Below the pieces are notes generated by a model. That model was not told the DNA's origin. It saw only the letters and a list, made by a program, of their open reading frames with translations, and searched no databases. A stretch of DNA of 64,000 nucleotides, from positions 2,461,372 through 2,525,371 of the forward strand of contig OZ252250.1 in assembly GCA_965249675.1 (NCBI GenBank), in the 5' to 3' direction. The position numbers and the translations under genes were made by a program. The number at the start of each line of letters is the position of its first letter. Within the stretch, counting starts at the first letter, position 1. The DNA comes from Dehalococcoidia bacterium (lineage in GTDB: Bacteria; Chloroflexota; Dehalococcoidia; UBA2979). Shown here piece by piece: positions 6,285 to 60,137 of this stretch.

Positions 6285-6354
6285 TCCGCCGAGTGTACGG
6301 GCACGGCCTGCTGGACTCGAACGGGGCGGCCACGGACACCGCTATACTGGCCGC

Positions 6355-9225
6355 GTGACACCCCCGACCGCGCCCCGCCCCCCAGTTGTCCGAGCGGGCG
6401 GTCTCGCAGCAGGCGAACGGTCTCCCCGGCTCGTGATCCTTGACTCCCATGGGATCATCTTCCGCTCCTACTTCGCCCTCCGAGATGTCCTCACCGTGCG
6501 CAGCACCGGGGAACCGGTCTCGGCTGTCTACGGCTACGCGAACAGCCTGCTGACCGTGCTCGACGAGCTGGAGCCGACCCACGTGATTGCGGCCTGGGAC
6601 GCCGCGTCTGCAACCTTCCGCCGCAGCCTCGACGAGGGATACAAGGCCCACCGTCCGCCGACGCCGCCCGATCTCTTGCCGCAGTTCGAGCGGGTCCGCG
6701 AGTTGCTGGGGGCCTTCCAGATCCCGCTCGTCGAACGGCCTGGTTTCGAGGCAGACGATGTACTCGGCACCTTCGCCAGCCAGGCGTCGGCGCAGGGCAT
6801 CGAGACGATTCTCGTGACCATGGACAACGATCTCGTTCAGCTCGTTGACGAACATGTTCGGGTGTACATGTACCGCCCCTACCAGCGCGACTATGTGATG
6901 TATGACGAGGCAGCTGTGCGCGATCGCTGGAGCTTCGAGCCGGTGCAGATGGTCGACTACAAGGCACTCGTCGGTGACGCCTCGGACAACATTCCGGGTG
7001 TCAAGGGGATCGGCGAGAAGGGTGCCCGCGCGTTGATCGCACGCTGGGGATCCCTCGAGGCGATGATCGAGCACATCGATGAGATTGCGCCGGCGAGGGC
7101 GCAGAAGGCGCTCGCGGCCGGGATCGAGCAAGGGAGGCTCTCGCGGCAGCTGGCCACCATCGTTCGCGACGTTCCCGGGCTCGAGCTCACACTCGACTCC
7201 GCCGAACTCGCTGACTACGACCGCGAGCGAGTACGCGCGCTCTTCCAGGAGCTCGACTTCCATTCGCTCGTTCGTCGGTTGCCGCCGTCGAGGCATGACG
7301 CTCCCGGTGGCCAGCGCGAGCGCGCTCCCGAAGACGTGGACTATCAGCTCGTCGCCGCGCCGCAAGAGCTTCGCTCGCTGGTGGCCCGGGTCCGAGAGAA
7401 GGGGCGCTTCTCCTTCCATGTCGTCGCCGACGACGCACACCCGATCCGAGCGCGAGACTCCCTGGTCGGGATCAGCATCGCCTGCACACCTGGTCAGGCA
7501 TGGTACGTCCCGCTTCCTCCCGAACAGGCGCCCGCGGTCGTCCAGCAGCCGGCGCTCCTCGCCGAGCCGGACGAGCGACCGGCGGGAGGTCCGCCTGCCA
7601 GTCCGCTCCCCCGTGCCGCGGTGATGGAGGCACTCTCACCGCTCTTCGCCGATGGAGAGCTGGGCGTCGTCGGTCACGATGCAAAGTTCGGGCTGCTGGC
7701 CCTGGCCGGGAGTGGCTTCCCGGTGCCTCTGGGAGCCGCGGACTTCGACACGCAGGTCGCCGCCTATCTGGTCGGCGACCCGAACATCTCGCTCGAACGT
7801 CTGGCACTCAGTCGCCTCGGCCTCGAGACCGTTGACACCCGGAGCTTCCTCGGTCGCGGACGCCAGGCGATCGGCTTCTCGCAGGCCAGGGTCGCTGATA
7901 TCGTCCAGGCCGCCTCGCAGCAGGCCGACTACACCCTGCGCGCGGCCGAGCCGCTGCGCCATGAACTCGAGAGCTCTGAACTGGCGACCGTCTTCCGGGA
8001 CATCGACTTACCGCACATCCCCGTGCTGGCTCGTATGGAACAGTTCGGCATCGCGCTCGAGACGGACGTCCTGACCGACCTCGCCAGAGAGCTCTCAGAA
8101 CAGATCGCGCTGGCCCAACAAGATTCCTACCAGGCCGTCGGGCACGAGTTCAGGCTGGGATCGCCGCAGGAACTGTCGACCGTGTTGTTCGAAGAGCTCA
8201 AGCTCCCGAGGACACGCAAGACGCGCACCGGCTACACCACCGACGCGGCGGCGTTGGAAGCGATGAGGCAGCTCCATCCCGTCATCGAGTCGGTGCTGCG
8301 CTGGCGCGAGCTCACCAAGATCAAATCGACCTACGTCGACTCGCTTCCCGGCCAGATCAACCCTCGCACGGGACGGGTCCACACCGTCTTCTCCCAGTCC
8401 ACAGCGGCTACCGGTCGCCTCTCGTCGAATCACCCAAACCTGCAGAACATCCCGGTCAGGACCCTCCTGGGCCAGAGAGTCAGAGAGGCCTTCGTCGCTC
8501 GTGATTGTGGTCCCGATCCCCTCTTCCTCTCGGTCGACTACTCGCAGATCGAGCTCCGCGTCCTCGCCGATCTCGCCGGCGATGACGAGCTGCGACGGGC
8601 CTTTCACGAGGGACAGGACATTCACACGGCGACCGCGGCCAATATCTTCGGTGGGGCGCTTGCCGATGTCACCGCGGACCAACGCCGTCGCGCCAAAGTC
8701 TTCAACTTCGGTGTCCTCTACGGCCTCACGGCCTTCGGCCTCTCCCAGCGGGAGGGGATCGATCCGGGCGAGGCGCAGGCCTTTATCGACGCGTACTTTT
8801 CCGCCTACCCTGCGGTCCAGCAGTGGCGCGAGCAGACGGTTGCTGAGGCCCGAGAACGGGGATTTGCCGAGACCCTGAGCGGCCGGCGGCGGCCGATCCC
8901 CGATCTCCACGCGACCAACTTCAATCGACGATCGGCCGCAGAACGGATCGCGATCAACATGCCGATCCAGGGCACGGCATCCGACATCATCAAGATCGCG
9001 ATGAACCGCATCGACGCCGAGCTGCGCGAGCGCCAGCGCCGCGGCAAACGCGCCCGGCTCTTGTTGCAGGTCCACGACGAGCTGATCTTCGAACTCCCTG
9101 AGAGCGAGCTGGCCGAGGTGCGAGAGATCGCGCAGCGGCTCATGCCCTCCTTGCCCCTTGCCGTGCCGCTCGACCTCGATGAACGCGTCGGCCCTTCGTG
9201 GGGCGACCTCGCTGCCATCCCGTGA
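6355..9225 (+). CDS. polA: DNA polymerase I
   Basis: 5'-3' exonuclease start RLVILDSHGIIFRSYFAL; polymerase motifs DYSQIELRVLA and QVHDELIFE. GTG start proposed at 6355, because the track ORF from 6169 would overlap the divergent permease gene. Confidence 0.9.
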   Translation: MTPPTAPRPPVVRAGGLAAGERSPRLVILDSHGIIFRSYFALRDVLTVRSTGEPVSAVYGYANSLLTVLDELEPTHVIAAWDAASATFRRSLDEGYKAHRPPTPPDLLPQFERVRELLGAFQIPLVERPGFEADDVLGTFASQASAQGIETILVTMDNDLVQLVDEHVRVYMYRPYQRDYVMYDEAAVRDRWSFEPVQMVDYKALVGDASDNIPGVKGIGEKGARALIARWGSLEAMIEHIDEIAPARAQKALAAGIEQGRLSRQLATIVRDVPGLELTLDSAELADYDRERVRALFQELDFHSLVRRLPPSRHDAPGGQRERAPEDVDYQLVAAPQELRSLVARVREKGRFSFHVVADDAHPIRARDSLVGISIACTPGQAWYVPLPPEQAPAVVQQPALLAEPDERPAGGPPASPLPRAAVMEALSPLFADGELGVVGHDAKFGLLALAGSGFPVPLGAADFDTQVAAYLVGDPNISLERLALSRLGLETVDTRSFLGRGRQAIGFSQARVADIVQAASQQADYTLRAAEPLRHELESSELATVFRDIDLPHIPVLARMEQFGIALETDVLTDLARELSEQIALAQQDSYQAVGHEFRLGSPQELSTVLFEELKLPRTRKTRTGYTTDAAALEAMRQLHPVIESVLRWRELTKIKSTYVDSLPGQINPRTGRVHTVFSQSTAATGRLSSNHPNLQNIPVRTLLGQRVREAFVARDCGPDPLFLSVDYSQIELRVLADLAGDDELRRAFHEGQDIHTATAANIFGGALADVTADQRRRAKVFNFGVLYGLTAFGLSQREGIDPGEAQAFIDAYFSAYPAVQQWREQTVAEARERGFAETLSGRRRPIPDLHATNFNRRSAAERIAINMPIQGTASDIIKIAMNRIDAELRERQRRGKRARLLLQVHDELIFELPESELAEVREIAQRLMPSLPLAVPLDLDERVGPSWGDLAAIP

Positions 9226-18354: not shown

Positions 18355-18429
18355 ACGTGACTCGACACCGGGATGTCGAGCTGGAACGCGGGAGCTGTCT
18401 CCGGCATGTGAGTGGTCAGTTTCGCCTAG

Positions 18430-19623
18430 GGACGCTCTGAACTGGCCGCGAAATGCGGCCGATCAGGCTCTTCTGGGGCGTTCAATCGCTTGATGGTCAG
18501 GAATGCGGCCTGATCGGGGCTCGCGAGCGGCTCTGCGAGTGCCGTTTGGCGCTCGCTGCGGGATTCTGGGCGCACTGCGCCGTTGTTACGCAGCAAGTTG
18601 GCGCTCCGCTCGAACCATGTTGGCCAGCCCCAACAGCAACGCGAGCCGCTGCGTGTTCTTGAACAATCCGCGGTAGCGGACCTTGGCGTAGCCGAAGCGC
18701 ACCTTCACGATCTGGAACGGATGCTCGACCTTCGCACGCACGGAGGCCTTGCGCTTCTCTTCGAGCCACTCCTCACCCTCCCGGTCGAGCAGTCGCCGCT
18801 TGCCCGGTCGCATGGCAACCTGCCACTGCACCGCACGCTCGCGCTGCTCCAGACGTTTTCCGATGCCCTGGTAGCCCGCATCGCCACAGACCAGCCTTTC
18901 GTTGCCGTGCAGCAGGTCGGGCGCCGCGGTGATGTCGCTCACGTTCGCCGCCGTCGTGTGGAGGCTGTGCACGATGCCGCTCTCAGAGTCCACCCCGATG
19001 TGCAACTTCATCCCGAAGTACCACTGGTTTCCCTTGCGCGTCTGGTGCATCTCGGGATCCCGTGCTCTGGCCCGATTCCTGGTCGACGAGGGGGCGCTGA
19101 TGGTACTGGCATCAACCACAGTCCCCTGTCTCAACTGCAGTCCTTCCGCCTCCAGATGGCGGTTGATCTCCTCGAGCAATCCCCTCCCCAGCGCGGCCGC
19201 CTCCAGCCGGTGGCGGAAGTTGAGAATCGTCGTCTCATCGGGGATCGCGTCCGATAGCCTGAGCCCCACGAAGCGCTGCACGGTGAGATTCTCGTACAGC
19301 GCGTCCTCCATCGCCGGGTCGCTGAGGTTGTCGACCAGTTGCACGATGTGCACCCGCAGCATCAGTGACAGTGGGTAGGGCTGGCGCCCCCGTCCCGGCA
19401 TCGGGTAGTGGGGCGCAATGCGCTGCTCGAGTTGCCGCCACGGAACCAGCCGATCGAGTCGTTCCAGAAACCGCTCCCGGCGAGTCGTTCGCTTCTTCGC
19501 GTCGTAGTACAGCTCCGCGAACGTTGCCTCGCCCATCGCGCTCACCTCGTCATCTGGTCGAATGCCATACCATCCCGTGTAGGCATCTTAACAGATCATG
19601 CGGGTCTGTTCAGAGCGTCCCTA
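18430..19623 (-). mobile_element. IS5-family insertion sequence, copy 1 (1194 bp)
   Basis: Terminal inverted repeats GGACGCTCTGAAC at both ends; CTAG on one flank, CTAA on the other (shared with copy 2); near-identical to the copies at 45441 and 58921. Confidence 0.9.
18586..19545 (-). CDS. IS5-family DDE transposase (319 aa)
   Basis: Strong similarity to E. coli IS5 transposase (RPYPLSLMLRVHIVQ, DPEMHQTRKGNQWYFGMKLHIGVD, RAKVEHPFQIVKVRFGY). Confidence 0.95.
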   Translation of the reverse strand: MSAMGEATFAELYYDAKKRTTRRERFLERLDRLVPWRQLEQRIAPHYPMPGRGRQPYPLSLMLRVHIVQLVDNLSDPAMEDALYENLTVQRFVGLRLSDAIPDETTILNFRHRLEAAALGRGLLEEINRHLEAEGLQLRQGTVVDASTISAPSSTRNRARARDPEMHQTRKGNQWYFGMKLHIGVDSESGIVHSLHTTAANVSDITAAPDLLHGNERLVCGDAGYQGIGKRLEQRERAVQWQVAMRPGKRRLLDREGEEWLEEKRKASVRAKVEHPFQIVKVRFGYAKVRYRGLFKNTQRLALLLGLANMVRAERQLAA

Positions 19624-19627
19624 AGGA

Positions 19628-20785
19628 AGCTCTGAACTGGGAGCAGAATACGGCCGATCAGGCGGTTTCGGGACGTTCAGTCGCTTGATGGTCGGGGATG
19701 CGGCCTGATCGAGGCTCGCGAGAGGCTCTGCGAGTGCCGTTTGGCGCTCGATGCGGGATTCTGGGCGCACTGGGCCCTGGTTACGTAGCAAGTTGGCGCT
19801 CCGCTCGAACCACGTTGGCCAGTCCCAACAGCAACGCCAACCGCTGCGTGTTCTTGAACAGTCCGCGGTAGCGGACCTTGGCGTAGCCGAACCGCACCTT
19901 CACGATCTGGAACGGATGCTCGACCTTCGCGCGCAGCGAGGTCTTGCCCCGCTCCTCGAGCCACTCCTCACCCTCGGCGTCGAGCAATCGTCGCATCCCC
20001 GGTCGCATGGCAACCTGCCACTGCACCGCACGCTGGCGGTGCTCCAGACGTTTGCCGATGCCCTGGTACCCCGCATCGCCACAGACCAGCGTCTCGTCGC
20101 CGTGCAGCAGGTACGACACCTCGCTGATGTCGCTGACGTTCGCCGCCGTCGTGTGCAGGCTGTGCACGATGCCGCTCTCCGAGTCCACCCCGATGTGCAA
20201 CTTCATCCCGAAGTACCACTGGTTTTGGCGCGATTCCTCGTCGACGCCGGGGCGCTGATGATACTGGCATCGACGATCGTCCCGGACTGCGCTCGGAGCC
20301 GCAGCCCCTGTGCCTGCAGATGGCGGTTGATCTCTCCGAGCAAGCCCGTCCCCAGCGCGGACGCCTCCAGCCGATGGCGGAAGTTGAGAATCGTCGTCTC
20401 ATCGGGGATCGCGTCCGATAGCCTGAGCCCCACGAAGCGCTGCACGGTGAGATTCTCGTACAGCGCGTCCTCCATCGCCGGGTCGCTGAGGTTGTCGACC
20501 AGTTGCACGATGTGCACCCGCAGCATCAGTGAGAGCGGGTAGGGCTGGCGCCCCCGTCCCGGCATCGGGTAGTGGGGCGCAATGCGCTGCTCGAGTTGCC
20601 GCCACGGAACCAGCCGATCGAGTCGTTCCAGAAACCGCTCCCGGCGCGTCGTTCGCTTCTTCGCGTCGTAGTACAGCTCCGCGAACGTTGCCTCGCCCAT
20701 CGCGCTCACCTCGTCATCTGGTCGAATGCCATACCATCCCGTGTAGGCATCTTAACAGATCATGCGGGTCTGTTCAGAGCGTCCT
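19628..20785 (-). mobile_element. IS5-family insertion sequence, copy 2: diverged (~90% nt identity) with a 38-bp internal deletion
   Basis: Same terminal repeats (GGAAGCTCTGAAC / GGACGCTCTGAAC). Lies 4 bp (CTAA) from copy 1 in the same orientation; the other flank is the GUGCG 5' end of the group II intron. Confidence 0.85.
19781..20709 (-). pseudogene. IS5-family transposase, disrupted by internal deletion and frameshift
   Basis: N-terminal part (20203-20709) and C-terminal part (19781-20206) fall in different frames; compared with copy 1, 38 bp are deleted around STRNRA.../NQWYFGMK. Confidence 0.85.
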
Positions 20786-20786
20786 G

Positions 20787-21296
20787 TGCGTCCAGAAGTC
20801 AAAGGATGGTGACGAGATGACGTAACCAATCCGGAGACGTGCTCGTCGTTGCCAGCCGGTGGAAGTCCGGTCTGGGTAGCTGTCAGGAGGCCCCGTAGCA
20901 GGTCGGCGGCGCGGACGGGAAACGGTCCGTGTCGAAGCCCGATGTCGAAAGCCCATTTGGGGGAGCAACCAAGCGGTCCGCAGCATGAAGCGAAGCCTGC
21001 CGCACCGTGAATGACTCAAAGAGGAGCCGAGCCCGGGGGATCGGGGCGAAGACCATGGACGAGGTGAAGAGCCTCAAAGCGCAGCCTCAAGGAACCTCTC
21101 GGCGTAAGGGGCGTGGAACGTTTGGAAGGTAGCGACGGGAACTGGAGAAGCCCTCCCCGGCCCGGCACCCTGCGAAACGGTGTCGGAGCGAGGCGTCTTA
21201 TAACCGGTGATAAGCCGGGAAGTGGACAGCCAACCGGAGGGTGACGGAGGGGGCAGTAGTACCGCTGGAGCCGGACGGACAACAGAACTGCCGGTG
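20787..21296 (+). ncRNA. group II intron 5' RNA domains (putative domains I-III)
   Basis: Starts GUGCG, carries no long ORF, and is followed by the start of the intron-encoded protein. Confidence 0.45.
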
Positions 21297-21410
21297 ATGG
21301 GAAGGGCCCCTACTTTGTCTATGCGATGCGTTCAGGGAGGAATCGGGAGTGGCCACGGTCTACCAACCACCCGGAATAAGGTTCAAGAACTACAACGCAC
21401 GCTCTACCGG
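21297..21410 (+). pseudogene. group II intron RT/maturase, N-terminal fragment (...VQELQRTLYR) cut by IS3 insertion
   Basis: The reading frame continues at 25504 with AAKADPKRRFHALYDKVYRRDILERAWEQV, together reconstructing a canonical IEP N-terminus. Confidence 0.7.
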
Positions 21411-21440
21411 AAGCTGTCAACCTCTCCATGCCGGTCGAGG

Positions 21441-22466
21441 TCAGGGTGTTGTTGCAATGACGGGTTTGTTGATCCACGCCTCCTTCGGGGGTCTGGCGGC
21501 CCGCGGCGGTCCGTTGCGGAACCGCTCGGGCCAGACGCTGTAGGCGGCATCCAGGGTCTCCTGACGCGCCTGCACGGTCTCCAGGGCTTGCCCGCCGTGG
21601 AGCGTGGCGGGGTGCTGGTAGCCGACACCGGAGTGGTAGTGCTCGCGGTTGTACCAGTCGACAAACGGCGCCATCCAGCTCCGCACCTCCTCCAGCGAGT
21701 GGAAGCGGTCGGGGTAGTCGTGGCGGTACTTGACGGTCTTGAAGCCGGCCTCGGAGTAGGGGTTGTCGTTGCTCACGCGCGGGCGCGAGAGGCTGCGCGT
21801 GACAGCGAGGTCTTCGAGCAACTCCGCCAGGCTTGTCGACGTCATCTGGGCGCCACGGTCTGAGTGCAGCGTCAGTTGCTGCGGCGAGATCCCGTTGCGG
21901 TCGCAGGCGGTGCCCACCAGCGTCCTGGCAACCTCGGTCGACTCCGCCGTGTCGACCGTCCAGGCGACGATCTTGCGACTGAAGATGTCGATCATCACGT
22001 AGAGATAGAACCAGCTGCGGTGGTGAGGGCCGCGGAGCCGCGAGATGTCCCACGACCAGACCTCGTTCGGGCCGCTCGCCTGCACCTGGGGTGCATGGTG
22101 GGTCGTGCGTCGGTGACCGCGACGCCGTTCTCTGACCAGGCCGCGTTCCTCGAGGATGCGGTACATCTGGCGGATCGAGCAGACGTACGAGCCCTCGTCC
22201 AGCAGCTGATAGTAGACCTGGGCGGGCGCCTGGTCACGAAAGCGTGGTGAGCACAGCAGCTCGGCGATGTGATCGCGCAGCTGGTCGGGGATGCGTGACG
22301 GCTGCGGCTGGTGCTGCTCGCGCGGTTTCGCCTGTGACGGCCGCCTGTGTAGCCGGCCGGCGGCCGCCTGGCGGCGGCTGCGGTCGGTCCGCTCTGAGTA
22401 TCCGAAGGCTCGACAGGCGCGGGCACGGCCAACCCGCTGGGCCCATGCTTCCACAGCGGCGAGCAT
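21441..22466 (-). CDS. IS3-family transposase OrfB (integrase catalytic core)
   Basis: rve-type DDE domain (WSWDISRL, YLYVMIDIFSRKIV, HSDRGAQMTS, RPRVSNDNPYSEAGFKTVK). Confidence 0.9.
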   Translation of the reverse strand: MLAAVEAWAQRVGRARACRAFGYSERTDRSRRQAAAGRLHRRPSQAKPREQHQPQPSRIPDQLRDHIAELLCSPRFRDQAPAQVYYQLLDEGSYVCSIRQMYRILEERGLVRERRRGHRRTTHHAPQVQASGPNEVWSWDISRLRGPHHRSWFYLYVMIDIFSRKIVAWTVDTAESTEVARTLVGTACDRNGISPQQLTLHSDRGAQMTSTSLAELLEDLAVTRSLSRPRVSNDNPYSEAGFKTVKYRHDYPDRFHSLEEVRSWMAPFVDWYNREHYHSGVGYQHPATLHGGQALETVQARQETLDAAYSVWPERFRNGPPRAARPPKEAWINKPVIATTP

Positions 22467-22547
22467 CTGCGCCCGCCAGTTGGCGTATGCCTGGGAATGA
22501 CAACCCGTTCTGGCCCCACCTTGATCCTCTGAACTGGCCCCACCCCC

Positions 22548-23340
22548 GGGATGTGGTCAGCTGGTCGGAGCACCTCCCTTCGAGGCGGTGGTGACCCGCA
22601 GGCGATAGGACTCGCTGCCGGTCTCGATGATGTGGGCGCGGAACGTGAGCCGGTCGACGACCGCGGCGGCGAGGCGGGGGGTCGGCGAAGGTGCGGCCCC
22701 ACTCCGAGAACGGCGCGTTGGAGGCGACTGCCACCGAGGCCCGCTCCTCGCGCTCGGTGAGGACCTGGAAGAGCAGTTCGGCTCCGCGCGGGTCGAGGTG
22801 GACGTAGCCGAACTCGTCGAGGCAGAGCAGGTCGAGCCGGCCGTAGCGGGCGACCAGGCGTGAGAGCGTGCGCTCGTCGGCGGCTTCGGCCAGTTCGTTC
22901 ACGAGCTGTGCCGCCGTCGTGTAGCGCACCCGCAGCCCGCGCTGGCAGGCGGCCATGCCGAGCCCGATCAGCAGGTGCGACTTGCCGGTGCCGCTGTCTC
23001 CGAGCAGCACGACGGGCTGGCCCGAGGCGATCCACTCGCCGCGCTCGAGCGTGGCGAGCATGGTCGGGTCGACCGTGGGGGCCGCCGCCAGGTCGAAGTC
23101 GGCGAGGTGCTTGAGCCGGGGGAAACGGGCCTCGTGGATGCGGCGCTCACGGCGGCGCGCATCGCGGTCGTCGAGCTCGGATTGGAGCACCTCGGCGAGG
23201 TAGGCGAGATGGGTGAGCCGGTCGCGCAGCGCGGCCTCGGCGAGCGCGCCGGCCTGCTGACGGACCGTGGGGAGGTGCAGCGCACGGCTGGTCGCCTCGA
23301 CCTGAAGCGCCGCCGCCTGCTCGGTCACAGGTGTGCTCAT
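22548..23340 (-). pseudogene. IS21 IstB ATP-binding helper, frameshifted near C-terminus
   Basis: Walker A GDSGTGKSHLL and DEFGYV. After ...FSEWGRTFADP the frame is lost at a 6-G homopolymer (22676-22681); removing one base restores ...RLAAAVVDRLTFRAHIIETG... Confidence 0.8.
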
Positions 23341-24866
23341 CGCGTGCTCGCGGCGAGCAGCGCGTCGTAGCCGGCCAGGCTCGGCGCCGGGCGTTCGAAG
23401 CGCCTGAGCGCCGGCCGCTCCACAACGGCGGTCTCGCGGCGGCCGTCGGCGACGCGGCGCGCCTCGATGGCGATCAGCGCCGGGTCCACCGCGCCCAGCT
23501 GCTCCACCGCATCGAGTGCTGCGTGCACCGAGGCGGCGGGGAGGTGGCGGTGCAATAGCAGCACCTCGATGAGCGCCCGCGTCCCGGCGCCGTCACCGAG
23601 CTTGCGGCGGGCACGCTGCCAGAAGCGTTCGTGCGCGGCGGTGAAGCCAGCGCCTGAGCGCGCCTGCGCGAGCGCGATCGAGCCGGGCAGCGCCCCGGGC
23701 TTGCGGGACAGCACCTCGAGGAAGTGGTCCAGCACGAGGACCTCGGATCCCTTGTGCGCGCTGCGCTCGTGGCGGGCAACCACCCGGCCCGCGACGAGGG
23801 CGGTCACGGTCCCGCCGCCCAGGCGGACGTCCACCGTGCGGCCCGCGAACGCCGCGGGGACCGAGTAGCGCGAGCCACGCACGGAGATGCGCGCCTTGCG
23901 GTCGGCCTTCGCTTGCAGTGCGACCGTGGGGTCGAAGGGTTCGGCGGGGAGGGGCCGCAGCGCGGGCCGCTCTGCCTCCGCCGTCTGGCCGACGGTGGCG
24001 AGCCGGCCGGCGATGTGGCGGGCTCCGTCTGCGCGGTCGGCCGCCTCGAGCAGCGCGTTCAGCTCGGCCAGGCTCTCGCCGCGCGGGACCGGCACGAGGT
24101 GGCGCCGGCGGAAGCGCCCGACCTCACCCTCCACGCCCCCCTTCTCGTGCGCGCCCGCGATGCCGGGCTCGCAGAAGAAGCTGTCGAAGCCGTAGTGCGA
24201 GCGCAACGCGACGAAACGGTCGCTCTCGACGCGGTCGCGGCCGCGCAGCACGCGCGTGACGGCCGAGCTCAGATTGTCGTAGCGGATCCGCCGCGGCACC
24301 CCGCCGAGGCGCTCGAGGGCGAGCGTGTGGCCCTCGAGGAACGCCTCCTGGCCCTCGCCCGGGAAGCACACGTGGACCGCCCGCCCCGAGTGCGAGAGCC
24401 GCAGCACGAACATCGACAGCTCGGTCAGCACGCCGTCCAGCCAGACGCTGACCCCGCCGAAGTCGACCTCCGCCTCCTCGCCCGGCGGATGCAACTGGGG
24501 GATCGTCACGACTGAGCGACCGGACTCCAGCTCGCGGCGCACGCGGCCGACGTAGGCGCGCACCGTCGCCTCGGCGACCGTCGCGCCGTACTCATCGACG
24601 AGGCGCTCCCAGACCCGCCGCGCCGTGTGCCGCTGCTTGCGCGGCGCGCTCAGGTCGGCGACGAGCCACTCCCGGATGATCTCTACGTACGGACCGAGCT
24701 TCGGCGCCGCTCGAGACGCCTGCTTGCGTTGTGGCGGCAGCGCCGACTGCAGCGCCTGCCGTACCGTGCGCCGGTGCACGTGGTGGCGGCGCGCCAGCTC
24801 GCGTATGGGCAGCCCCTCCTCTCGCCATGCCCGTCGGATATCCTCGAACAACTCCACCCTCGACAC
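23337..24866 (-). CDS. IS21 IstA transposase
   Basis: N-terminal HTH (IRELARRHHVHRRTVRQAL), DDE core; 4-nt overlap with istB as is typical. Confidence 0.9.
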   Translation of the reverse strand: MSRVELFEDIRRAWREEGLPIRELARRHHVHRRTVRQALQSALPPQRKQASRAAPKLGPYVEIIREWLVADLSAPRKQRHTARRVWERLVDEYGATVAEATVRAYVGRVRRELESGRSVVTIPQLHPPGEEAEVDFGGVSVWLDGVLTELSMFVLRLSHSGRAVHVCFPGEGQEAFLEGHTLALERLGGVPRRIRYDNLSSAVTRVLRGRDRVESDRFVALRSHYGFDSFFCEPGIAGAHEKGGVEGEVGRFRRRHLVPVPRGESLAELNALLEAADRADGARHIAGRLATVGQTAEAERPALRPLPAEPFDPTVALQAKADRKARISVRGSRYSVPAAFAGRTVDVRLGGGTVTALVAGRVVARHERSAHKGSEVLVLDHFLEVLSRKPGALPGSIALAQARSGAGFTAAHERFWQRARRKLGDGAGTRALIEVLLLHRHLPAASVHAALDAVEQLGAVDPALIAIEARRVADGRRETAVVERPALRRFERPAPSLAGYDALLAASTR

Positions 24867-25025
24867 ACTCCTCTTCTTTCGCTCGGGGAGGTCTCAGTTG
24901 CCCGAGCGTAGCTGCTGGATGGGTCGGGGGTGGGGCCAGTTCAGAGGATCAAAACGGCTCCAGATGGGGCCAAATCAGAGTAGCGTTCCCATATGCCTGC
25001 GCTGGCCACTCGGCTCGGGTCGGCG

Positions 25026-25472
25026 CTACCCGTTCTGGCCACTCGGTCGCCGCTGCGACGCGCTCTTGCGGGCAAATCTTTGCAAGAGCGCCAAGGCTTT
25101 TCCCTGGGCCTCGATCAGCTCCTCTGCCGTCTCCAGCTGCTGCTCGGCAAGCATCGCCCGCTGCCGGTAGCGGTCGCGCTCAAGGGTCAGCCGGTTGGGC
25201 GCTCGTGGTCCCGGCGGCCGCTCGACGAGGGCACGGCGCGCCCCATCGTCACGCTGCTGGCGCCACCTGGTGATCAGAGAGGAGTACAGACCCTCGCGCC
25301 GACAGATGGCGCCGACTGCTCCCGGCTCTCCGCGGGCCTTTGCCTCGTCGATCTCCGCCAGGATGTCGAGCTTGTACTGCACTGGCCACGACCTGCGTGC
25401 TCGACGCACCTCAGTCTCTTCATCAACCACCATCGGTCTACGTCCACTTCTCCGCCCTCGTATCAATCGCAC
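25026..25472 (-). CDS. IS3-family transposase OrfA (HTH / leucine zipper)
   Basis: Identical to orfA of copy B except for a few substitutions; ends QRFARKSASQRRPSGQNG. Confidence 0.85.
   Translation of the reverse strand: MRLIRGRRSGRRPMVVDEETEVRRARRSWPVQYKLDILAEIDEAKARGEPGAVGAICRREGLYSSLITRWRQQRDDGARRALVERPPGPRAPNRLTLERDRYRQRAMLAEQQLETAEELIEAQGKALALLQRFARKSASQRRPSGQNG
25098..25104 (-). promoter_or_regulatory. -1 programmed ribosomal frameshift heptamer G GGA AAA of IS3 copy A
   Basis: X XXY YYZ heptamer in orfA frame; orfB lies in the -1 frame and stays open from the heptamer onward. Confidence 0.55.
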
Positions 25473-25503
25473 TACATCCGGCAGAGATGAGGTTGGCAGC
25501 TAG

Positions 25504-26773
25504 GGCCGGGCGGCCAAGGCCGACCCCAAGCGACGATTCCATGCGCTCTACGACAAGGTCTATCGCAGGGACATTCTGGAGCGCGCGTGGGAGCAGGTGC
25601 GTCGCAATCACGGCGCAGCCGGTATCGACGGCGTCACGCTCGCCGAGGTCGAGCGCTACGGCGTGGAGCGTCTGCTGGATGAGTTGGCCGCGGAACTGAA
25701 GGACGGAAGCTACAGGGTGCAGCCGAGCCGCCGAGTCTGGATACCCAAGCCCGGACGGACGGAGCAGCGCCCGCTCTCGATTCCCTCGGTCCGTGACCGC
25801 ATCGTGCAGGCGTCGCTGAAGCTGGTGACGGAGCCGGTCTTTGAGGCCGACTTCTTGCCATCGAGCTTCGGCTTCCGCCCGAAGCTCGCGGCCCATGACG
25901 CCCTGCAGGTCCTCATTGATGAGGCGTGGCGGGGCAGGCGGTGGGTAGTGGAAACGGACATCGTCTCGTGTTTCGAGTCGATATCTCACGACCGTTTGAT
26001 GGTGGCCGTCGAGGAAAGGATATGCGACCGCAATCTCCTGAAACTGGTACGGGCGATGCTGCGTGCCGGTGTGATGGAGTCGGGGGTCGTGCAGCACAGC
26101 GTGACGGGTACGCCGCAGGGCGGGGTGATGTCTCCGCTGCTGGCCAACGTCTACTTGCACCGTTTGGACCGGGAATGGGAGGCGAAGGGTACGGGCGTGC
26201 TGGTGCGCTACGCGGACGACCTCGTGGTGCTCTGCCGGGGAGGAAGCGGAGCAGGCCCTGGCCTTGCTGCGCGACCTGCTGGGTGAGCTCGGCTTGGAGC
26301 TCAAGGCGGAGAAGACGCGCATCGTGCGCCTGCGTGAGGGAGGCGAGGGACTGGAGTTCCTCGGCTTCGAGCACCGCTGGGTACGTGCGGAGCGCAACAA
26401 GAATATCCAGTTCCTCGCACGCTGGCCCTCACGGCGAGCGATGCAGCGGGCGCGAGACCGTATCCGTGAGCTCACGACGCGGTCGCGTCTATTGCTGAGT
26501 CCATCGACGGTCGTGGCGGACGTGAACCGCTACCTCCGTGGTTGGGTGAGCTACTTCCGCTACGGCAACTCGGCGCAGGCGTTCAATTCGCTTCGCTGGT
26601 ATGCCGGGTGGCGTCTCAAGGTGTGGTGGGGCAAACGGCTGGGATGGCGCCTCCGTCATCGCTACGGACCGTTTCCCCTTGCCCACCATCTGGGGCTCAT
26701 CCGGCTCGCTGGGCGCGTCGTTACGCCACGGCCGATGAGGCCGTGGCGGGGAGCGCCGCATGCCGCCCGGTGA
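25504..26773 (+). pseudogene. group II intron reverse transcriptase/maturase (IEP of intron 1), frameshifted
   Basis: RT domains (GIDGVT, IPKPG, SFGFRP, VRYADDLVVL) then maturase X domain (RYLRGWVSYFRY); an extra G in the run at 26237-26240 splits it into ORFs 25597-26286 and 26264-26773; no endonuclease domain. Confidence 0.8.
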
Positions 26774-27160
26774 AAGGCATCGGTGAGCCGTGTGCGGGGT
26801 GCGCCAAGCTAACTGGTGTTTGGACAGGGGGTGAAAGTCCGCCGCGGTGAAGGGGCTAGCCACCCCACACCGCTCCCCGAGCCGTGCGTGGGTCGCCGCG
26901 AGGCGGCACGCGAAGCGTCGGCAGGGGTACATGTGGGCAAGGCTATAGAGCGCCGAAAGTGGCATTGTTCGGAGTGCCGAGGCTTTCTCGCAGGCCGAAG
27001 GCAACAGCGGCGGCGGCGTTTTGGCGAGCCGTCGCCTTCTCCGCGGCGTCTAAGAACCATTGCACGCATGCACGTCCATCACCGGGACTTGGGAGAGCTG
27101 CGCGCCGCCCCGACGAGTCGTACGTCGGGGCCGCGTCGGGAAGGGAGGCAACCGTAGCTG

Positions 27161-28658
27161 ATGATGAACGACGCGCAGCAGTCTGATGGGGCCGTAGGAG
27201 CTATGAAGGTGACGAACAAAGGGGCGCGAGTCCCGGCGGAGTCGCTGGAGCAAAGGGCCCCAGCCGAGAGGAATCGGCGACGCTCCGGCACAGTCCGGTC
27301 TCAGAATCGGGGAGCTGTGTCACCCGGAGCGGAGCGGATACGGCAGTTCGCAGAGAAGAAGCCGGGAGAGAAACTCATCGCGCTCCTGCACCACATCACG
27401 TCGGAAACACTCAAGGAGGCGTACCACGCTTTGAAGCGTGACGCGGCTCCGGGCGTGGACGGGGTGACGTGGCGGGAATACGGGGACGGACTGGACGAGC
27501 GTTTGCTCGACCTGCACGGCCGCGTGCACCGGGGAGCGTATCGGGCGAAGCCTGTGCGGCGGGTAGAGATACCAAAGCCGGACGGGGGCGTACGACCGCT
27601 CGGTATCGTCTCGCTGGAGGACGAGATCGTTCAGCGGGCAGTGGTGGACAATCTTCTGAACCCGATTTACGAATCGGAGTTCTACGGCTTCTCGTACGGC
27701 TTCAGGCCGGGGCGCTCGGCGCATGACGCGCTGGACGCACTGGCCTACGCGGTCGAACGGCGCAAGGTCAGCTGGATTGTCGAGGTGGACATCCGGGGGT
27801 TCTTCGACAGCATCGACCGGGAACGGCTGATGTCGTTTCTGGAGATGCGCATCGGGGACCAGCGGGTGTTGCGCCTGATACGAAAGTGGCTGAACGCCGG
27901 AGTCATGGACGGGGGACTGGAAGTCGATTTCGTGCGGGGGACGCCGCAGGGAGCGCCGATATCGCCGCTGCTTGCGAACGTGTACCTGCACAACGTGCTC
28001 GATGACTGGTTCGCGCGCGAGTGGCGACCGCGGGAGGCCCGGGGCGAGGCGTACATCGTGCGGTATGCCGATGACTTTGTCCTGGGGTTTCAGCACCGCA
28101 GCGATGCGGTGCGTTTCATGGAGGCGCTTCGGGAGCGATTTGCGGCCTTCGGACTGGAGCTGCACCCGGAGAAGACGCGTCTTGTGGAGTTCGGCCGGTT
28201 CGCGATGGCGAACCGGCGTAAGCGCGGGGAGAGTCGGCCGGAGACGTTCGATTTTCTCGGGCTGACGCACTACTGCCGGACGACGAGCAAGGGGCGTTTC
28301 GGGCTGGGACGTAAGCCCTCAGCGAAGCGTATGCATCGCACGCTCAAGGCCATACGGGCCGAGACGCGGCGGCGCATGCACGACAACCCAGTGAGTGGCG
28401 CAGTGGCTTGGGCGTGTGCTGCGTGGGTGGCTTGGCTACTACGCGGTGCCGACGAGTTATCGGTTCCTCCACCGCTTTGTGCAGACCTTGCTCCGCATGT
28501 GGTGGCAGGTCTTGCGGCGGCGGTCGCAACGGGATCGTTTCTCGTGGGAGCGCCTCGACGCCCTGTGCCGGGACTACTGGCCTCGAATCTCCATCCTCCA
28601 CCCGTGGCCGACGACGCGGTTCGCCGTCAGGACTCAAGGCAGGAGCCGGATGCATTAA
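27161..28658 (+). pseudogene. second group II intron-type reverse transcriptase/maturase (RT2), frameshifted
   Basis: GVDGVTWREY, VRRVEIPKPDGGVRPLGI, YGFRPGRSAHDAL, IVRYADDFVLGF, then X domain LRGWLGYYAVP in a different frame (ORF 28395-28658) because of a 4-bp tandem duplication AGTGAGTG at 28390-28397. Confidence 0.8.
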
Positions 28659-28854
28659 CGTGCACGTCCGGATCCGTGCGGGGGGCGGCCAGCAATGGCC
28701 GTCCCTACCGCGAAAGAACCGCACGTCTGGTTCGAGGTGGCAGGGGCTGAAGACCGACGTTGCTACGGACGGGGAGTTGTGCACCACCGGGAAACCGGCT
28801 TGGAATCGACGCGCCCCGGCCCTACGGCACGCACCGCGCCAGCCCCTGACCCTA

Positions 28855-31296
28855 CTAAAGCGGTGGGCGGTCGCTTCGAGCCGCGCTCGTGTCTGTCTCC
28901 CCGGACTCTTCTTCATCCCGCGCCAGCAGCACCTCGCGGGAATTCGTGCCGTCTGGCGGCGCGACGATGCCGCGATCTTCCAGCTGATCCATCGTGCGCG
29001 CCGCCCGCGGATAACCGATGTGGAGCTTGCGTTGGAGCATCGAGGTGGAGAGCGTCTCCTGCGCTCGGGCGAGCTCGATAGCCTGGGCGAGCAGCGGGTC
29101 ATCTTCGCCGGAGATCTCGCGCTCCTGCCGGTCCTCAATCTCGCGCGCGGCCTCATGCAGCAGGTCGTCGAACGTCTCGGGGCGCAGTTCACTAAACCGA
29201 TCGGCGGTCCAAAATGACACCAGTCTCTGAATCTCCTGGTCGCTCACGAACACACCCTGGACGCGCAACGGCTTCTGCTCTTCCGGCGGCACATAGAGCA
29301 TGTCGCCGCGGCCGAGCAACTTCTCGGCGCCGCCCTGGTCCAGGACCGTGCGCGAGTCGACCGATGACGCCACGGCGAAGGCGATGCGGGTCGGGAAGTT
29401 CGCCTTGATCAGTCCGGTGATGACGTCGACCGACGGCCGCTGTGTTGCGACGACCAGGTGGATCCCCGTCGCTCTTGCCAGCTGTGCCAGACGCACGAGC
29501 TGCGTCTCGACCTGGAACGGAGCGGCGATCATGAGGTCGGCGAGCTCATCGATGACCACGACCCAGTAGGGGATCCGGGTCCCTGCCGGTCGGTCGTTAT
29601 AGGCCGCAACGTTGCGAACGCCGGCTGCGGCAAACTTGCGGTAGCGAGACTCCATCTCATTGATCACCGCCTGCAGCGTTCCGACCACTTCGTCCATCTC
29701 GACGACGATTCGTGAGAAGGCAAGGTGCGGAATCGCCGCGAAGTCGGCCAGCTCGACCCGCTTCGGGTCGATCATCACGAGCCGTAGCTGCTCTGGGGAG
29801 AGGTGCATCAGAAGTCCGCTGATGATCGCGTTCAGGCAGACCGACTTGCCCGCACCCGTGGTGCCGGCGATGAGGACGTGTGGCATCTTGGCGAGGTCAG
29901 CGATCACCGGCTCGCCTGATACGCCCTGGCCGAGTGCAATGGGGAGAGCCATCTTTGTCAGCGCCTCGCGGTACTGCGATGTCTGCATGACCTCACGCAG
30001 GGTCACCGGGACGGTGTCCCGGTTCGGGACCTCAATACCAACCATCGGCTTACCGGGCACGGGGGCCTCAATCCGCAGGGCCGGGGCCGCGAGAGCCAGC
30101 GCCAGGTCGTTATTGAGAGCGGTGATGCGGCTGACCCGGATTCGCGTACGCGCGGTCTCAACCTCACGCCGCACCGGTTGGCCATCGTCGTCGAGTATCG
30201 GACGCCCGGAGGCGTCCTGCTCGGTGACCAGTCGCGACTTCACATCCCACCCGGGCTCGACGCCGAACTGCGTGATGGTCGGACCTTCGTTGACCTGAAC
30301 GACCCGAGCATCGACACCGAAGGAGGCGAGCGTTTCAGTGATCAGTTCCGCCCGCCGCTGGTTGTCGACGGTGCGGGAGGGACCGGCGGGGGCCTCCTCA
30401 AGCACCGTGATCGGCGGGAGTGGCCATCCGTCCTCGGAGTGGCGGAGCTGATCGACCGGCGTCTCCATGTCCATGGGCATCTGCTTCGCCGGCCGATCTG
30501 GCGCATCCGGCGCGCTGCTGTCCGCGGCAAGGCCAGCCGCCGGCGGCGCTGATTGGTCGTCGGTGACAACAACAGGAGGCACCAGCTCTGGCATGGGCGG
30601 CCCTGCGATCTCTTCGATCGGGTCGGCAACAGGTGGCCCGGCAGCGGGGGAGGGGCGGCCCAGCCGCACCGAGGCCACCTGAGCGGAGACCCGGGTAATG
30701 GCGCGCCACGCGTGGCGGTCGAGGCGCGCTCTCCAGAGTTCGGTCAACCCCACTACGCCTGTGGCGAGCGTGCCTCGACCGAGTGCCGAGGCGGTGCGTG
30801 GCCATACCAGGGCGAAGCCACTCAAGCCCAGCAGAACCCAGACGGCGGTCCCGTCCGGCCAGACCGTCAGCGAGCGGCCGAGGTCCCCACCGACCGAGTG
30901 AATGGAAAGCGGGACCTCCCCGATCTCGCGATCAGGATGCCAGTGGCCGAGCGCCCCGGCCAGGAATCCGGCGAGCCCCACAGCGCCCACGAGCTGCCGC
31001 CGGTGCGCCAAGAGTCGGTTGATCCGCCGCGTTGCGATCAGGAGCCCCAGAACGCCTACTACCAGCACCAGCGTGAAGGCGTGGACACCAAGCAATCGCA
31101 CGAGCTCGTCGGCTGCATCAGAGAGGATGCCCGTGAGTGACCAGAGGAACGGGACGGTTGCCGCGGCCAGCACGACGAGCGCCGTCCCGATGACCTCGGG
31201 GCGGATCAAGAGTCTCAGGGACGCCAGGACCCGATTGCTCGACCCGTTCGCGCCCGGGCGAGACGGGGCACGGCGGGCGCCGCCACTGTGGGCCAT
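28855..31296 (-). CDS. ftsK: DNA translocase FtsK/SpoIIIE
   Basis: N-terminal TM helices, Pro-rich linker, motor domain with Walker A AGTTGAGKSVCLN, C-terminal gamma winged helix. Confidence 0.9.
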   Translation of the reverse strand: MAHSGGARRAPSRPGANGSSNRVLASLRLLIRPEVIGTALVVLAAATVPFLWSLTGILSDAADELVRLLGVHAFTLVLVVGVLGLLIATRRINRLLAHRRQLVGAVGLAGFLAGALGHWHPDREIGEVPLSIHSVGGDLGRSLTVWPDGTAVWVLLGLSGFALVWPRTASALGRGTLATGVVGLTELWRARLDRHAWRAITRVSAQVASVRLGRPSPAAGPPVADPIEEIAGPPMPELVPPVVVTDDQSAPPAAGLAADSSAPDAPDRPAKQMPMDMETPVDQLRHSEDGWPLPPITVLEEAPAGPSRTVDNQRRAELITETLASFGVDARVVQVNEGPTITQFGVEPGWDVKSRLVTEQDASGRPILDDDGQPVRREVETARTRIRVSRITALNNDLALALAAPALRIEAPVPGKPMVGIEVPNRDTVPVTLREVMQTSQYREALTKMALPIALGQGVSGEPVIADLAKMPHVLIAGTTGAGKSVCLNAIISGLLMHLSPEQLRLVMIDPKRVELADFAAIPHLAFSRIVVEMDEVVGTLQAVINEMESRYRKFAAAGVRNVAAYNDRPAGTRIPYWVVVIDELADLMIAAPFQVETQLVRLAQLARATGIHLVVATQRPSVDVITGLIKANFPTRIAFAVASSVDSRTVLDQGGAEKLLGRGDMLYVPPEEQKPLRVQGVFVSDQEIQRLVSFWTADRFSELRPETFDDLLHEAAREIEDRQEREISGEDDPLLAQAIELARAQETLSTSMLQRKLHIGYPRAARTMDQLEDRGIVAPPDGTNSREVLLARDEEESGETDTSAARSDRPPL

Positions 31297-43587: not shown

Positions 43588-43640
43588 CGCCGACCCGAGC
43601 TGAGTGGCCAGCACAGGCATACGCCAACTGGCGGGCGCAG

Positions 43641-44666: not shown

Positions 44667-44733
44667 CCTCGACCGGCATGGAGAGGTTGACAGCTTCCGA
44701 TCACCTGCGTAACGCTGACCCGGAGCTAGATGC

Positions 44734-60110: not shown

Positions 60111-60137
60111 CTAGCGGTGCGAGAGACCCCTCCGCCG

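What the first reader, a model, noticed from the sequence alone, without database searches (positions are those of the whole stretch)
21297..26773. Reconstruction of the split group II intron RT: ...VQELQRTLYR | AAKADPKRRFHALYDKVYRR...
The ORF fragment ending at the IS3 junction (21410) and the ORF resuming after the other junction (25504) together give a canonical IEP N-terminus. Removing the IS and one copy of a CCGG duplication restores the frame (acg ctc tac cgg gcg gcc aag). This shows the IS3 landed inside an already resident intron. The IEP also carries an extra G in a G-run at 26237-26240, splitting RT domain 5 from the maturase domain.
Basis: partly seen in the sequence, partly recalled or inferred. 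Interest (0 to 1): 0.6.

Follow-up and report, generated by a model that had tools for sequence, protein, structure and literature searches.

The report
Dead group II intron split by insertions
This is a decayed bacterial group II intron whose reverse-transcriptase gene was cut by an insertion sequence, which is an ordinary fate for such elements and interesting only as a well-documented nest of mobile DNA.

Summary
The split is real. Window 20786-28855 (+) is one group II intron, about 2,055 nt without its inserts. An uninterrupted relative, locus L001 from a Dehalococcoidia MAG, is 88-90% identical and collinear with all three window pieces. The repaired protein scores 389 bits on TIGR04416 (cutoff 300) and matches RVT_1 and GIIM.

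Two corrections are needed. First, the frameshift at 26237-26240 is not an extra G. All 17 relatives carry two more codons there, so the window has most likely lost 5 nt (AGCCG). That is not a homopolymer-type sequencing error. Second, the left CGG of the "CCGG duplication" is the IS's own terminus, because all four known copies begin CGGAAGCTG. The IS spans 21408-25505, and at most one base was duplicated.

There is more damage:
- The IS3-family element carries a nested IS21 (22492-24991).
- A second group II intron (26799-28714) sits in the domain V loop, so this is a twintron.
- The outer intron itself invaded the end of an old IS5 copy at the ftsK stop codon.

It is a known kind of thing and of low novelty.

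The parts
20786..21407 (+). Intron 1, 5' segment: GTGCG 5' end, domains I-III, start of domain IV, and the first 37-38 codons of the IEP.
   Evidence: Rfam RF02003 group-II-D1D4-4 at 20853-20988, 93.6 bits against gathering 49. 88% identical to L001 5470-6111, with homology starting exactly at 20786.
21297..21410 (+). IEP1 N-terminal fragment (MGRAPT...VQELQRTLYR).
   Evidence: Translation. The conserved part GHGLPTTRNKVQELQRTLYR is identical in L001.
21408..25505 (-). IS3-family insertion sequence, 1,592 bp of its own plus a nested IS21. orfB is 21441-22466 (-) and orfA is 25026-25472 (-).
   Evidence: orfB scores 190 bits on NF033516 transpos_IS3 (cutoff 160) and matches rve. An uninterrupted second copy lies at 43108-44699, 97-99.6% identical. 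Ends are defined by four copies: CGGAAGCTG...CAGCTAGGG.
22492..24991 (-). IS21-family element nested in the orfA-orfB spacer of the IS3 element. istA is 23337-24866 (-). istB is 22234-23340 (-), with +1 G in the run at 22676-22681.
   Evidence: NF033546 248 bits and NF038214 210 bits. TATGCC lies on both sides but occurs once in the uninterrupted IS3 copy. The istB indel was seen against the L060 relative.
25506..26798 (+). Intron 1, middle segment: the rest of the IEP (codon 39 to the stop at 26771-26773) and the 5' half of domain V (26785-26798, GAGCCGTGTGCGGG).
   Evidence: 89.8% identical to L001 6108-7405. RVT_1 maps to about 25741-26369 and GIIM to about 26441-26645.
26233..26240 (+). 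Frameshift site in the IEP, 5 nt shorter than relatives (AGCCG missing between GG and GG).
   Evidence: DNA alignments to L001, L063, L064, L002 and L058. Protein alignment of 17 relatives.
26799..28714 (+). Intron 2, a different group II intron inserted in the domain V terminal loop of intron 1. Its IEP (27161-28658) is itself frameshifted near 28400.
   Evidence: RF02005 at 26834-27058, 162 bits. RF00029 domain V/VI at 28641-28714, 32.7 bits, below gathering 40. TIGR04416 354 bits after repair. Boundaries follow from domain V collinearity with L001, L017 and L022 and from the end of homology with the L001 copy.
28715..28855 (+). Intron 1, 3' segment: 3' half of domain V (AGAACCGCACGTCTGGTTC) and a long domain VI ending ...CCCCTGACCCTAC.
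   Evidence: 87% identical to L001 7406-7542. The same 3' terminus is followed by unrelated flanks in more than 20 copies. The rejoined domain V folds as the canonical bulged hairpin.
19622..20785 (-). Old IS5-family copy (89% identical to the other three copies, transposase broken) whose right end forms the 5' exon of intron 1.
   Evidence: NF033581 322 bits for the intact copy. The intron's EBS1-like loop pairs with the 5' exon and covaries across insertion sites.

Best explanation
Window 20786-28855 is a single, now inactive, En-less bacterial group II intron (Rfam subfamily D1D4-4). It lies antisense to ftsK.

**Inferred history.** It reverse-spliced into the right end of an old IS5 copy that sits on the ftsK stop codon. 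It was then hit at least three more times:
1. An IS3-family element inserted by DDE transposition between codons 37 and 39 of the intron-encoded RT/maturase, separating the N-terminal 38 codons from the rest by 4.1 kb. An IS21 element later inserted into that IS.
2. A 5-nt deletion just after the YADD motif shifted the frame, cutting RT blocks 6-7 and the maturase (X) domain off from the RT.
3. A second, unrelated group II intron reverse-spliced into the terminal loop of catalytic domain V. It was guided by pairing of its own loop CUCGCA with UGCGGG.

**Consequence.** The outer intron can neither make its protein nor fold its catalytic core. It is a fossil inside a nest of mobile elements.

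**Shown:** the anatomy, the boundaries, the empty-site sequences and the protein family membership.

**Inferred:** the order of events (apart from each insert necessarily post-dating the element it interrupts) and the loss of activity.
For: - **Collinearity.** L001 carries the uninterrupted intron. Window pieces 20786-21410, 25506-26798 and 28715-28855 map to L001 5470-6111, 6108-7405 and 7406-7543, which is contiguous.
- **IS junction.** It is identical to L001 over about 130 nt.
- **Domain V junction.** It is collinear with L001, L017 and L022.
- **Intron ends.** The 5' end GTGCGTCC and the 3' end CCCTGACCCTAC are shared by many copies that have different flanks.
- **RNA family.** RF02003 scores 93.6 bits.
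- **Protein family.** The repaired IEP hits RVT_1 at 5.6e-35 and GIIM at 3.4e-13. It scores 389 bits on TIGR04416 against a cutoff of 300. Its best solved-structure match is the GsI-IIC RT at 9e-60.
- **Frameshift.** Relatives have 5 more nt and 2 more residues at the site.
- **Insertion sequences.** IS3, IS21 and IS5 identities come from NCBIfam.
- **Exon pairing.** The EBS1 loop covaries with the 5' exon in four insertion sites. Intron 2 shows EBS1-IBS1 pairing with the domain V strand.
- **Fold.** The rejoined domain V forms the canonical hairpin.
- **Literature.** Most bacterial group II intron copies are truncated or inactivated and surrounded by other mobile DNAs, and bacterial twintrons are known (PMC4424553).
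Against: - No identical or intact copy of intron 1 was found in the window or in the source genome, which is not in the collections searched. The empty sites therefore come from a relative that is 88-90% identical, not from the same lineage.
- The IS shows no convincing target duplication at this site, at most 1 nt. That is atypical for the IS3 family.
- Read support could not be checked, so an assembly error at 26233-26240 cannot be formally excluded.
- Loss of splicing and mobility is inferred, not measured. The inner intron could in principle splice out and restore domain V.
Confidence: 0.9

Rival explanations
1. The IEP frameshift is a sequencing or assembly artefact, an extra G miscalled in the GGGG run. 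Apart from the IS insertion the gene would then be intact.
For: The break lies in a G4 run. IstB in the same region has a +1 G in a G6 run relative to its relative, which is the kind of error long-read assemblies make. The closest relatives come from long-read-style MAGs.
Against: Removing one G leaves the protein two residues shorter than all 17 relatives. At the DNA level the difference from the closest relatives is a 5-nt gap, which is not a homopolymer-length error. The IEP2 frameshift is likewise a 2-nt gap. Large housekeeping ORFs nearby, such as the 813-aa ftsK, are uninterrupted.
Confidence: 0.07
2. The two IEP halves come from two different intron copies that were joined by homologous recombination between two IS3 copies, not by a simple insertion into one intron.
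For: The IS has no clear target duplication here, and three of the four copies lack one. That pattern is what inter-IS recombination produces. The window holds a second IS3 copy.
Against: The flanks abut exactly as in the empty site of L001, with no loss and only one extra base. Left, middle and right pieces are about equally distant from L001, at 88.1%, 89.8% and 87.3%. No other intron 1 copy exists in the window. Two independent IS hits at the same nucleotide of two intron copies would be required.
Confidence: 0.03
3. The upstream ORF fragment (21297-21410) is a chance reading frame in intron domain IV RNA, not the true N-terminus.
For: TIGR04416 and Pfam models only begin to align at residue 59 or later, downstream of the junction. 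The start codon itself is not conserved in L001.
Against: tblastn matches to relatives begin at residues 2-27 of the reconstruction. The motif KVQxLQRTLYRAAKADP spans the junction without gaps in 17 relatives from several phyla.
Confidence: 0.01

Closest known systems
Bacterial En-less group II intron retroelements (the Zimmerly classification places En-less IEPs in classes C, D, E and F); Rfam RF02003 group-II-D1D4-4
   Same: 5' GUGCG. A domain I-IV core matching RF02003. A 33-nt domain V hairpin with a 3'-strand bulge. Domain VI with a bulged A 7 nt before the 3' end ...AC. An RT plus X (maturase) ORF in domain IV with no HNH/En domain. EBS1-IBS1 pairing with the 5' exon. Residence in or next to other mobile DNA.
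   Different: This copy is non-functional. The ORF is split by an IS and frameshifted, and domain V is split by another intron. The class (C, D, E or F) was not determined here. Domain VI is unusually long, about 120 nt.
Uninterrupted relative in a Dehalococcoidia MAG, CAXXYI010000001.1 (locus L001 5470-7542)
   Same: 88-90% nucleotide identity and 87% protein identity. Same ends and the same domain order. Supplies the empty-site sequence for both insertions.
   Different: L001 has no IS, no inner intron and no 5-nt deletion. It has a different 5' exon and EBS1 loop, and an extra 18 nt in domain I.
Bacterial and archaeal group II twintrons (Trichodesmium, Thermosynechococcus, Methanosarcina acetivorans; reviewed in PMC4424553)
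   Same: One group II intron is inserted by reverse splicing into another, outside housekeeping coding sequence. The inner intron would have to be removed before the outer one can fold.
   Different: The inner intron sits in the domain V terminal loop rather than in the ORF or domain IV. Both IEPs are broken, so sequential splicing is unlikely. Only 1 of about 70 related domain V sites examined is interrupted in this way, so this is not a recurrent homing site.
IS3-family insertion sequences
   Same: An rve-type DDE transposase (orfB) preceded by a small orfA. Imperfect terminal inverted repeats. Multi-copy in the genome, with copies 97-99.6% identical.
   Different: orfA and orfB are separate ORFs about 53 nt apart, not overlapping -1 frameshift partners. 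The ends are CGGAAGCTG.../...CAGCTAGGG, not TG...CA. Only one of four copies shows a 3-4-bp flanking repeat.

Membership tests
Group II intron (ribozyme) | Conserved 5' end GUGYG and 3' end AY | tested here: met
   GTGCG at 20786 and ...CCCTAC at 28855. Both ends are shared by relatives that have unrelated flanks.
Group II intron (ribozyme) | Domain I-IV core matching a curated covariance model | tested here: met
   RF02003 scores 93.6 bits against gathering 49, full-length model match at 20853-20988.
Group II intron (ribozyme) | Intact catalytic domain V hairpin followed by domain VI with a bulged branch A | tested here: not met
   Domain V is split at 26798/28715 by a 1,916-nt insert, and no RF00029 hit covers it in the window. 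After in-silico removal of the insert, the sequence GAGCCGTGTGCGGGAGAACCGCACGTCTGGTTC folds as the canonical hairpin and domain VI has a bulged A 7 nt from the end. The relative L001 scores 39 bits on RF00029 against gathering 40.
Group II intron (ribozyme) | EBS1-IBS1 pairing with the 5' exon | tested here: met
   Loop GGGAU pairs with exon GUCCU. The same loop covaries with the exon in three other insertion sites: GGAA/UUCC, CAAUU/GGUUG and GUGGU/ACCGC. The helices are short (4-5 bp, some wobble), so this is suggestive and not proof.
Group II intron (ribozyme) | Self-splicing or retromobility activity | not testable with these tools
   Requires RT-PCR or mobility assays.
Group II intron reverse transcriptase/maturase (TIGR04416) | Score above the curated cutoff over the full-length profile | tested here: met
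   389.1 bits against cutoff 300, profile positions 2-352 of 353 in one stretch. This holds only after in-silico removal of the IS and repair of the frameshift.
Group II intron reverse transcriptase/maturase (TIGR04416) | RT domain with YADD, plus the X/maturase domain | tested here: met
   RVT_1 at 5.6e-35 (profile 1-204 of 205) and GIIM at 3.4e-13. YADD is at 26209-26220.
Group II intron reverse transcriptase/maturase (TIGR04416) | A single uninterrupted ORF in the genome as it stands | tested here: not met
   There are three pieces: 21297-21410, 25510 to about 26286, and 26264-26773.
IS3 family | DDE (rve) transposase passing the family model | tested here: met
   NF033516 scores 190 bits against cutoff 160. 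rve at 7e-24 and rve_3 at 6e-11.
IS3 family | 3-4-bp target site duplication | tested here: inconclusive
   With ends fixed by four copies, copy 2 has TGAT/TGAT, this copy has at most 1 nt (C), and L079 and L080 have none.
IS3 family | orfA/orfB overlap with programmed -1 frameshift | tested here: not met
   In the intact copies orfA and orfB are separate, about 53 nt apart (gene table). No slippery site was sought.
IS21 family | istA transposase plus istB helper ATPase, TG...CA ends, short target duplication | tested here: met
   NF033546 scores 248 bits against 160. NF038214 scores 210 bits against 200. The ends are TGGGAATG...GTTCCCA, and TATGCC is duplicated relative to the uninterrupted IS3 copy. 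istB is frameshifted.
Twintron | One complete group II intron inserted within another with precise boundaries | tested here: met
   Removing 26799-28714 restores the domain V sequence of relatives exactly. The inner element has an RF02005 core, domains V/VI and its own IEP.

The most novel reading that the evidence does not exclude
The inner intron (26799-28714) may belong to a lineage that uses the conserved domain V stem-loop of other group II introns as a homing site. Its EBS1 loop CUCGCA pairs with the near-invariant UGCGGG of domain V. That would give a self-renewing target, as in the Methanosarcina intron-in-intron system, and possibly a twintron that still splices sequentially with a maturase supplied in trans.
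Probability: 0.04. Interest if true: 0.5.

Novelty: new member of a known kind. Interest (0 to 1): 0.2.

Why it matters
**For annotation.** Three ORF fragments, an apparently orphan RT N-terminus and two half domain V sequences should be merged into one pseudogenised group II intron, 20786-28855, with nested IS3::IS21 and a nested second intron. The locus gives a relative order of five mobile-element insertions at the 3' end of ftsK, all of which preserve a stop codon for ftsK.

**For method.** It shows that an apparent homopolymer frameshift and an apparent target-site duplication can both be misread from a single sequence. Each was corrected only by comparison with relatives and with other copies of the IS.

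**For biology.** It adds no new principle. Bacterial group II introns are known to be mostly inactivated copies embedded in other mobile DNA (PMC4424553).

Tried and rejected
1. I looked for the source genome and an empty-site allele through exact look-up of the FtsK protein. It is not on record. The genome-contig scan found only relatives at 88% identity or less.
2. I first took CCGG as a 4-bp target duplication. I rejected this after four IS copies all showed CGG as IS sequence.
3. I first read an 18-nt gap in domain I (21012/21013) as a further lesion removing an EBS2-like loop. I rejected this because the outer OZ253555 copies lack the same 18 nt.
4. I tested whether domain V is a recurrent target of intron 2-type elements. 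Only the window copy among about 70 domain V-like sites is interrupted by an intron. L077 is interrupted by something else that I did not identify.
5. The L001 copy of intron 2 is 5'-truncated, so it could confirm only the 3' boundary.
6. I did not assign a Zimmerly class (C, D, E or F). PDB best hits are IIC RTs, but the 5' exons show no terminator-like hairpin, and PDB sampling is too sparse to decide.
7. My first insertion of AGCCG was placed 2 nt too far left and gave LCQPGEE. The correct placement, between 26238 and 26239, gives LCRSREEAE, the sequence used.
Full report
**1. Observation**

The ORF starting at ATG 21297 reads MGRAPT...NKVQELQRTLYR up to 21410. It then runs into sequence with a transposase on the opposite strand. 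After 25509 the same frame reads AAKADPKRRFHALYDKVYRR.... CCGG occurs at 21407-21410 and at 25506-25509. GGGG is at 26237-26240, and the frame changes there, 9 codons after YADD (26209-26220).

**2. Is the reconstruction real?**

A scan of one genome per species with the rebuilt protein found 78 related loci. The closest is L001, from Dehalococcoidia MAG CAXXYI010000001.1. It carries an uninterrupted element, and the three window pieces map to it contiguously:

| Window piece | L001 position | Nucleotide identity |
|---|---|---|
| 20786-21410 | 5470-6111 | 88.1% |
| 25506-26798 | 6108-7405 | 89.8% |
| 28715-28855 | 7406-7543 | 87.3% |

- Across the IS site L001 reads ACGCTCTACCGGGCGGCCAAGG. 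It is 100% identical to the rejoined window sequence for about 130 nt.
- In a protein alignment of 17 relatives from Chloroflexota, Actinomycetota, Gemmatimonadota and others, the block KVQxLQRTLYRAAKADPxRRFHALYDKV spans the junction with no gap.
- The rebuilt protein hits RVT_1 (5.6e-35, full-length profile) and GIIM (3.4e-13).
- It scores 389 bits on TIGR04416 against a cutoff of 300.
- Its best solved-structure matches are group II RTs, led by GsI-IIC at 9e-60.

**3. First correction: the frameshift**

L001 and the OZ253555 copies read CTCTGCCGGAGCCGGGAGGAAGCGG. The window reads CTCTGCCGGGGAGGAAGCGG. Every one of the 17 relatives has C-x-x-R-x-x-A-E here. The parsimonious event is a 5-nt deletion (AGCCG). 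The alternative, a 6-nt deletion followed by a 1-nt insertion, needs two steps. A 5-nt gap is not a homopolymer-length miscall, so it is probably a real mutation, although reads could not be checked. The break separates RT blocks 0-5 from RT blocks 6-7 and the X domain, not only RT block 5 from the maturase.

**4. Second correction: the "CCGG duplication"**

A second, uninterrupted copy of the IS lies at 43108-44699. Two more copies with an identical OrfB were fetched as L079 and L080. All four begin CGGAAGCTGTCAACC and end GGTTGGCAGCTAGGG, with unrelated sequence outside those ends.

- The CGG at 21408-21410 is therefore IS sequence, and the IS is 21408-25505 (4,098 bp).
- The target C|CGGGCGG happened to resemble the IS end, and at most one C was duplicated.
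- Only copy 2 shows a flanking repeat (TGAT).
CCGG should not be quoted as a 4-bp target-site duplication.

**5. Anatomy of the IS**

- OrfB (21441-22466, minus strand) passes the IS3-family model at 190 bits against a cutoff of 160.
- OrfA is 25026-25472 (minus strand).
- Between them sits a 2,500-bp IS21-family element (22492-24991) with ends TGGGAATG...GTTCCCA. Its IstA scores 248 bits and its IstB 210 bits.
- TATGCC flanks the IS21 on both sides but occurs once in the uninterrupted IS3 copy.
- IstB carries +1 G in a G6 run at 22676-22681 relative to its relative in L060.

**6. The whole intron**

- *Ends.* Homology with relatives starts exactly at GTGCG (20786) and ends at ...CCCCTGACCCTAC (28855). 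The same ends are followed by unrelated flanks in more than 20 copies.
- *Core.* Rfam RF02003 (group-II-D1D4-4) matches 20853-20988 at 93.6 bits.
- *Split domain V.* After the IEP stop at 26771-26773 comes GAGCCGTGTGCGGG, the 5' half of domain V. A different group II intron follows immediately, starting GTGCGCCAAGC....
- *Inner intron.* Its core matches RF02005 at 162 bits (26834-27058). It has its own RT/maturase (TIGR04416 at 354 bits after repair) and domains V/VI at 28641-28714 (RF00029 at 32.7 bits, below gathering).
- *Proof of the twintron.* At 28715 the outer domain V resumes with AGAACCGCACGTCTGGTTC. Removing 26799-28714 gives GAGCCGTGTGCGGGAGAACCGCACGTCTGGTTC. This is collinear with L001, L017 and L022 and folds as the canonical bulged hairpin.
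- *Guided insertion.* The inner intron's hairpin loop CUCGCA (26987-26992) can pair with UGCGGG (26793-26798), as expected for an EBS1-IBS1-guided reverse-splicing event.
- *Inner intron is also damaged.* Its IEP lacks 2 nt near 28400 relative to the L001 copy.
- *Not a recurrent site.* Among about 70 domain V-like sites in the related loci, only this one is interrupted by an intron.

**7. Genomic setting**

The intron is on the + strand and ftsK (28855-31296) is on the - strand. The ftsK stop codon TAG is the reverse complement of CTA at 28855-28857, and its first base is the last base of the intron.

The 5' exon of the intron is the right end of an old IS5-family copy (19622-20785). That copy is 89% identical to three other copies that are about 99.7% identical to each other. 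All IS5 copies are flanked by CTA.

The intron's GCCC[loop]GGGC hairpin contains GGGAU, which is complementary to the exon's GUCCU. The same loop covaries with the last 4-5 exon bases in three other insertion sites of this family. This suggests the intron really invaded the IS5 end, not that the IS5 later landed beside it.

The inferred order is:
1. IS5 inserted at the ftsK stop codon (target CTA).
2. Intron 1 reverse-spliced one base into the right-hand CTA.
3. In unknown order: the IS3 element, then IS21 inside it; intron 2; and the 5-nt deletion.

A stop codon for ftsK is preserved in every state (TAG, TAA, TAG). This order is inference.

**8. Mechanism and function**

As it stands, the outer intron cannot express a full-length IEP, because the ORF is in three pieces. 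It cannot form domain V unless the inner intron is first removed, and the inner intron's own maturase is broken. The outer intron also lies antisense to the only adjacent gene. It is therefore best read as an inactive fossil. This matches the general picture that most bacterial group II intron copies are truncated or inactivated and surrounded by other mobile DNAs, and that bacterial twintrons sit outside housekeeping genes (PMC4424553).

**9. Comparison and novelty**

- The element meets the sequence-level definitions of a group II intron and of a group II RT/maturase once the inserts are removed.
- It lacks an En domain. Only RVT_1 and GIIM were found, which is consistent with classes C-F. 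The class was not assigned.
- An IS inside an intron, and an intron inside an intron, are both known arrangements.
- The domain V loop position of the inner intron is less usual for bacteria, but it appears to be a one-off.

Verdict: the split IEP is confirmed, and the nature of the frameshift and of the duplication are corrected. It is a new member of a known kind, of low interest.

Noticed in passing
window 26799-28714 (junctions 26798/26799 and 28714/28715): A second group II intron (RF02005 type) is inserted precisely in the terminal loop of domain V of the outer intron, forming a twintron. Its 3' end is ...CCCUACCGCGAA, not the usual AY. Its IEP lacks 2 nt near 28400 compared with a relative in L001.
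   Followed up: yes
window 22492-24991: An IS21-family element (istA and istB) is nested in the orfA-orfB spacer of the IS3-family element, with TATGCC duplicated. istB has one extra G in the G6 run at 22676-22681.
   Followed up: yes
window 43108-44699 (-); L079 1968-3559; L080 1212-2804: These are further, uninterrupted copies of the same IS3-family element, 1,592 bp each. They show the true ends CGGAAGCTG...CAGCTAGGG. Only one of the four copies has a flanking direct repeat (TGAT), which is unusual for the IS3 family.
   Followed up: partly
window 18427-19623, 19622-20785, 45438-46634, 58918-60113: The window holds four IS5-family copies, all flanked by CTA. Two are in tandem and share one CTA. 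The second tandem copy is old (89% identical, transposase frameshifted), and its right end is the 5' exon of the intron.
   Followed up: partly
window 28855-28857: The ftsK (minus strand) stop codon TAG is built from the last base of the intron plus two exon bases. Without the intron it would be TAA, and without the IS5 it would be TAG, so every insertion state keeps the stop in place.
   Followed up: partly
window ~21035-21050 and the equivalent loop in L001, L062 and L063: A hairpin loop in domain I (GCCC[loop]GGGC) changes together with the last 4-5 bases of the 5' exon in four different insertion sites. It is probably EBS1 of this intron family.
   Followed up: partly
window 21012/21013: There is an 18-nt indel in domain I relative to L001 and the inner OZ253555 copies. 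The outer OZ253555 copies lack it too, so it is a family polymorphism and not damage.
   Followed up: yes
L046-L064 (OZ253555.1, Dehalococcoidia MAG chromosome): More than ten loci carry a full-length copy of this intron family with an ORF-less derivative of the same family nested inside its IEP ORF. The nesting site corresponds to about window 25985, target TTTCGAGTCGATACCGC|ACGACC. The outer copies all sit in one repeated target, GATATCCGGYGAGGTTG|TCAAGGATCTGG. In L051, L060, L062 and L064 an IS21 relative lies nearby.
   Followed up: partly
L077 1258: A domain V 5' half (GAGCCGTGTGCGGGAG) is followed by unrelated sequence. This may be another interrupted or truncated domain V in a Solirubrobacteraceae MAG.
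   Followed up: no
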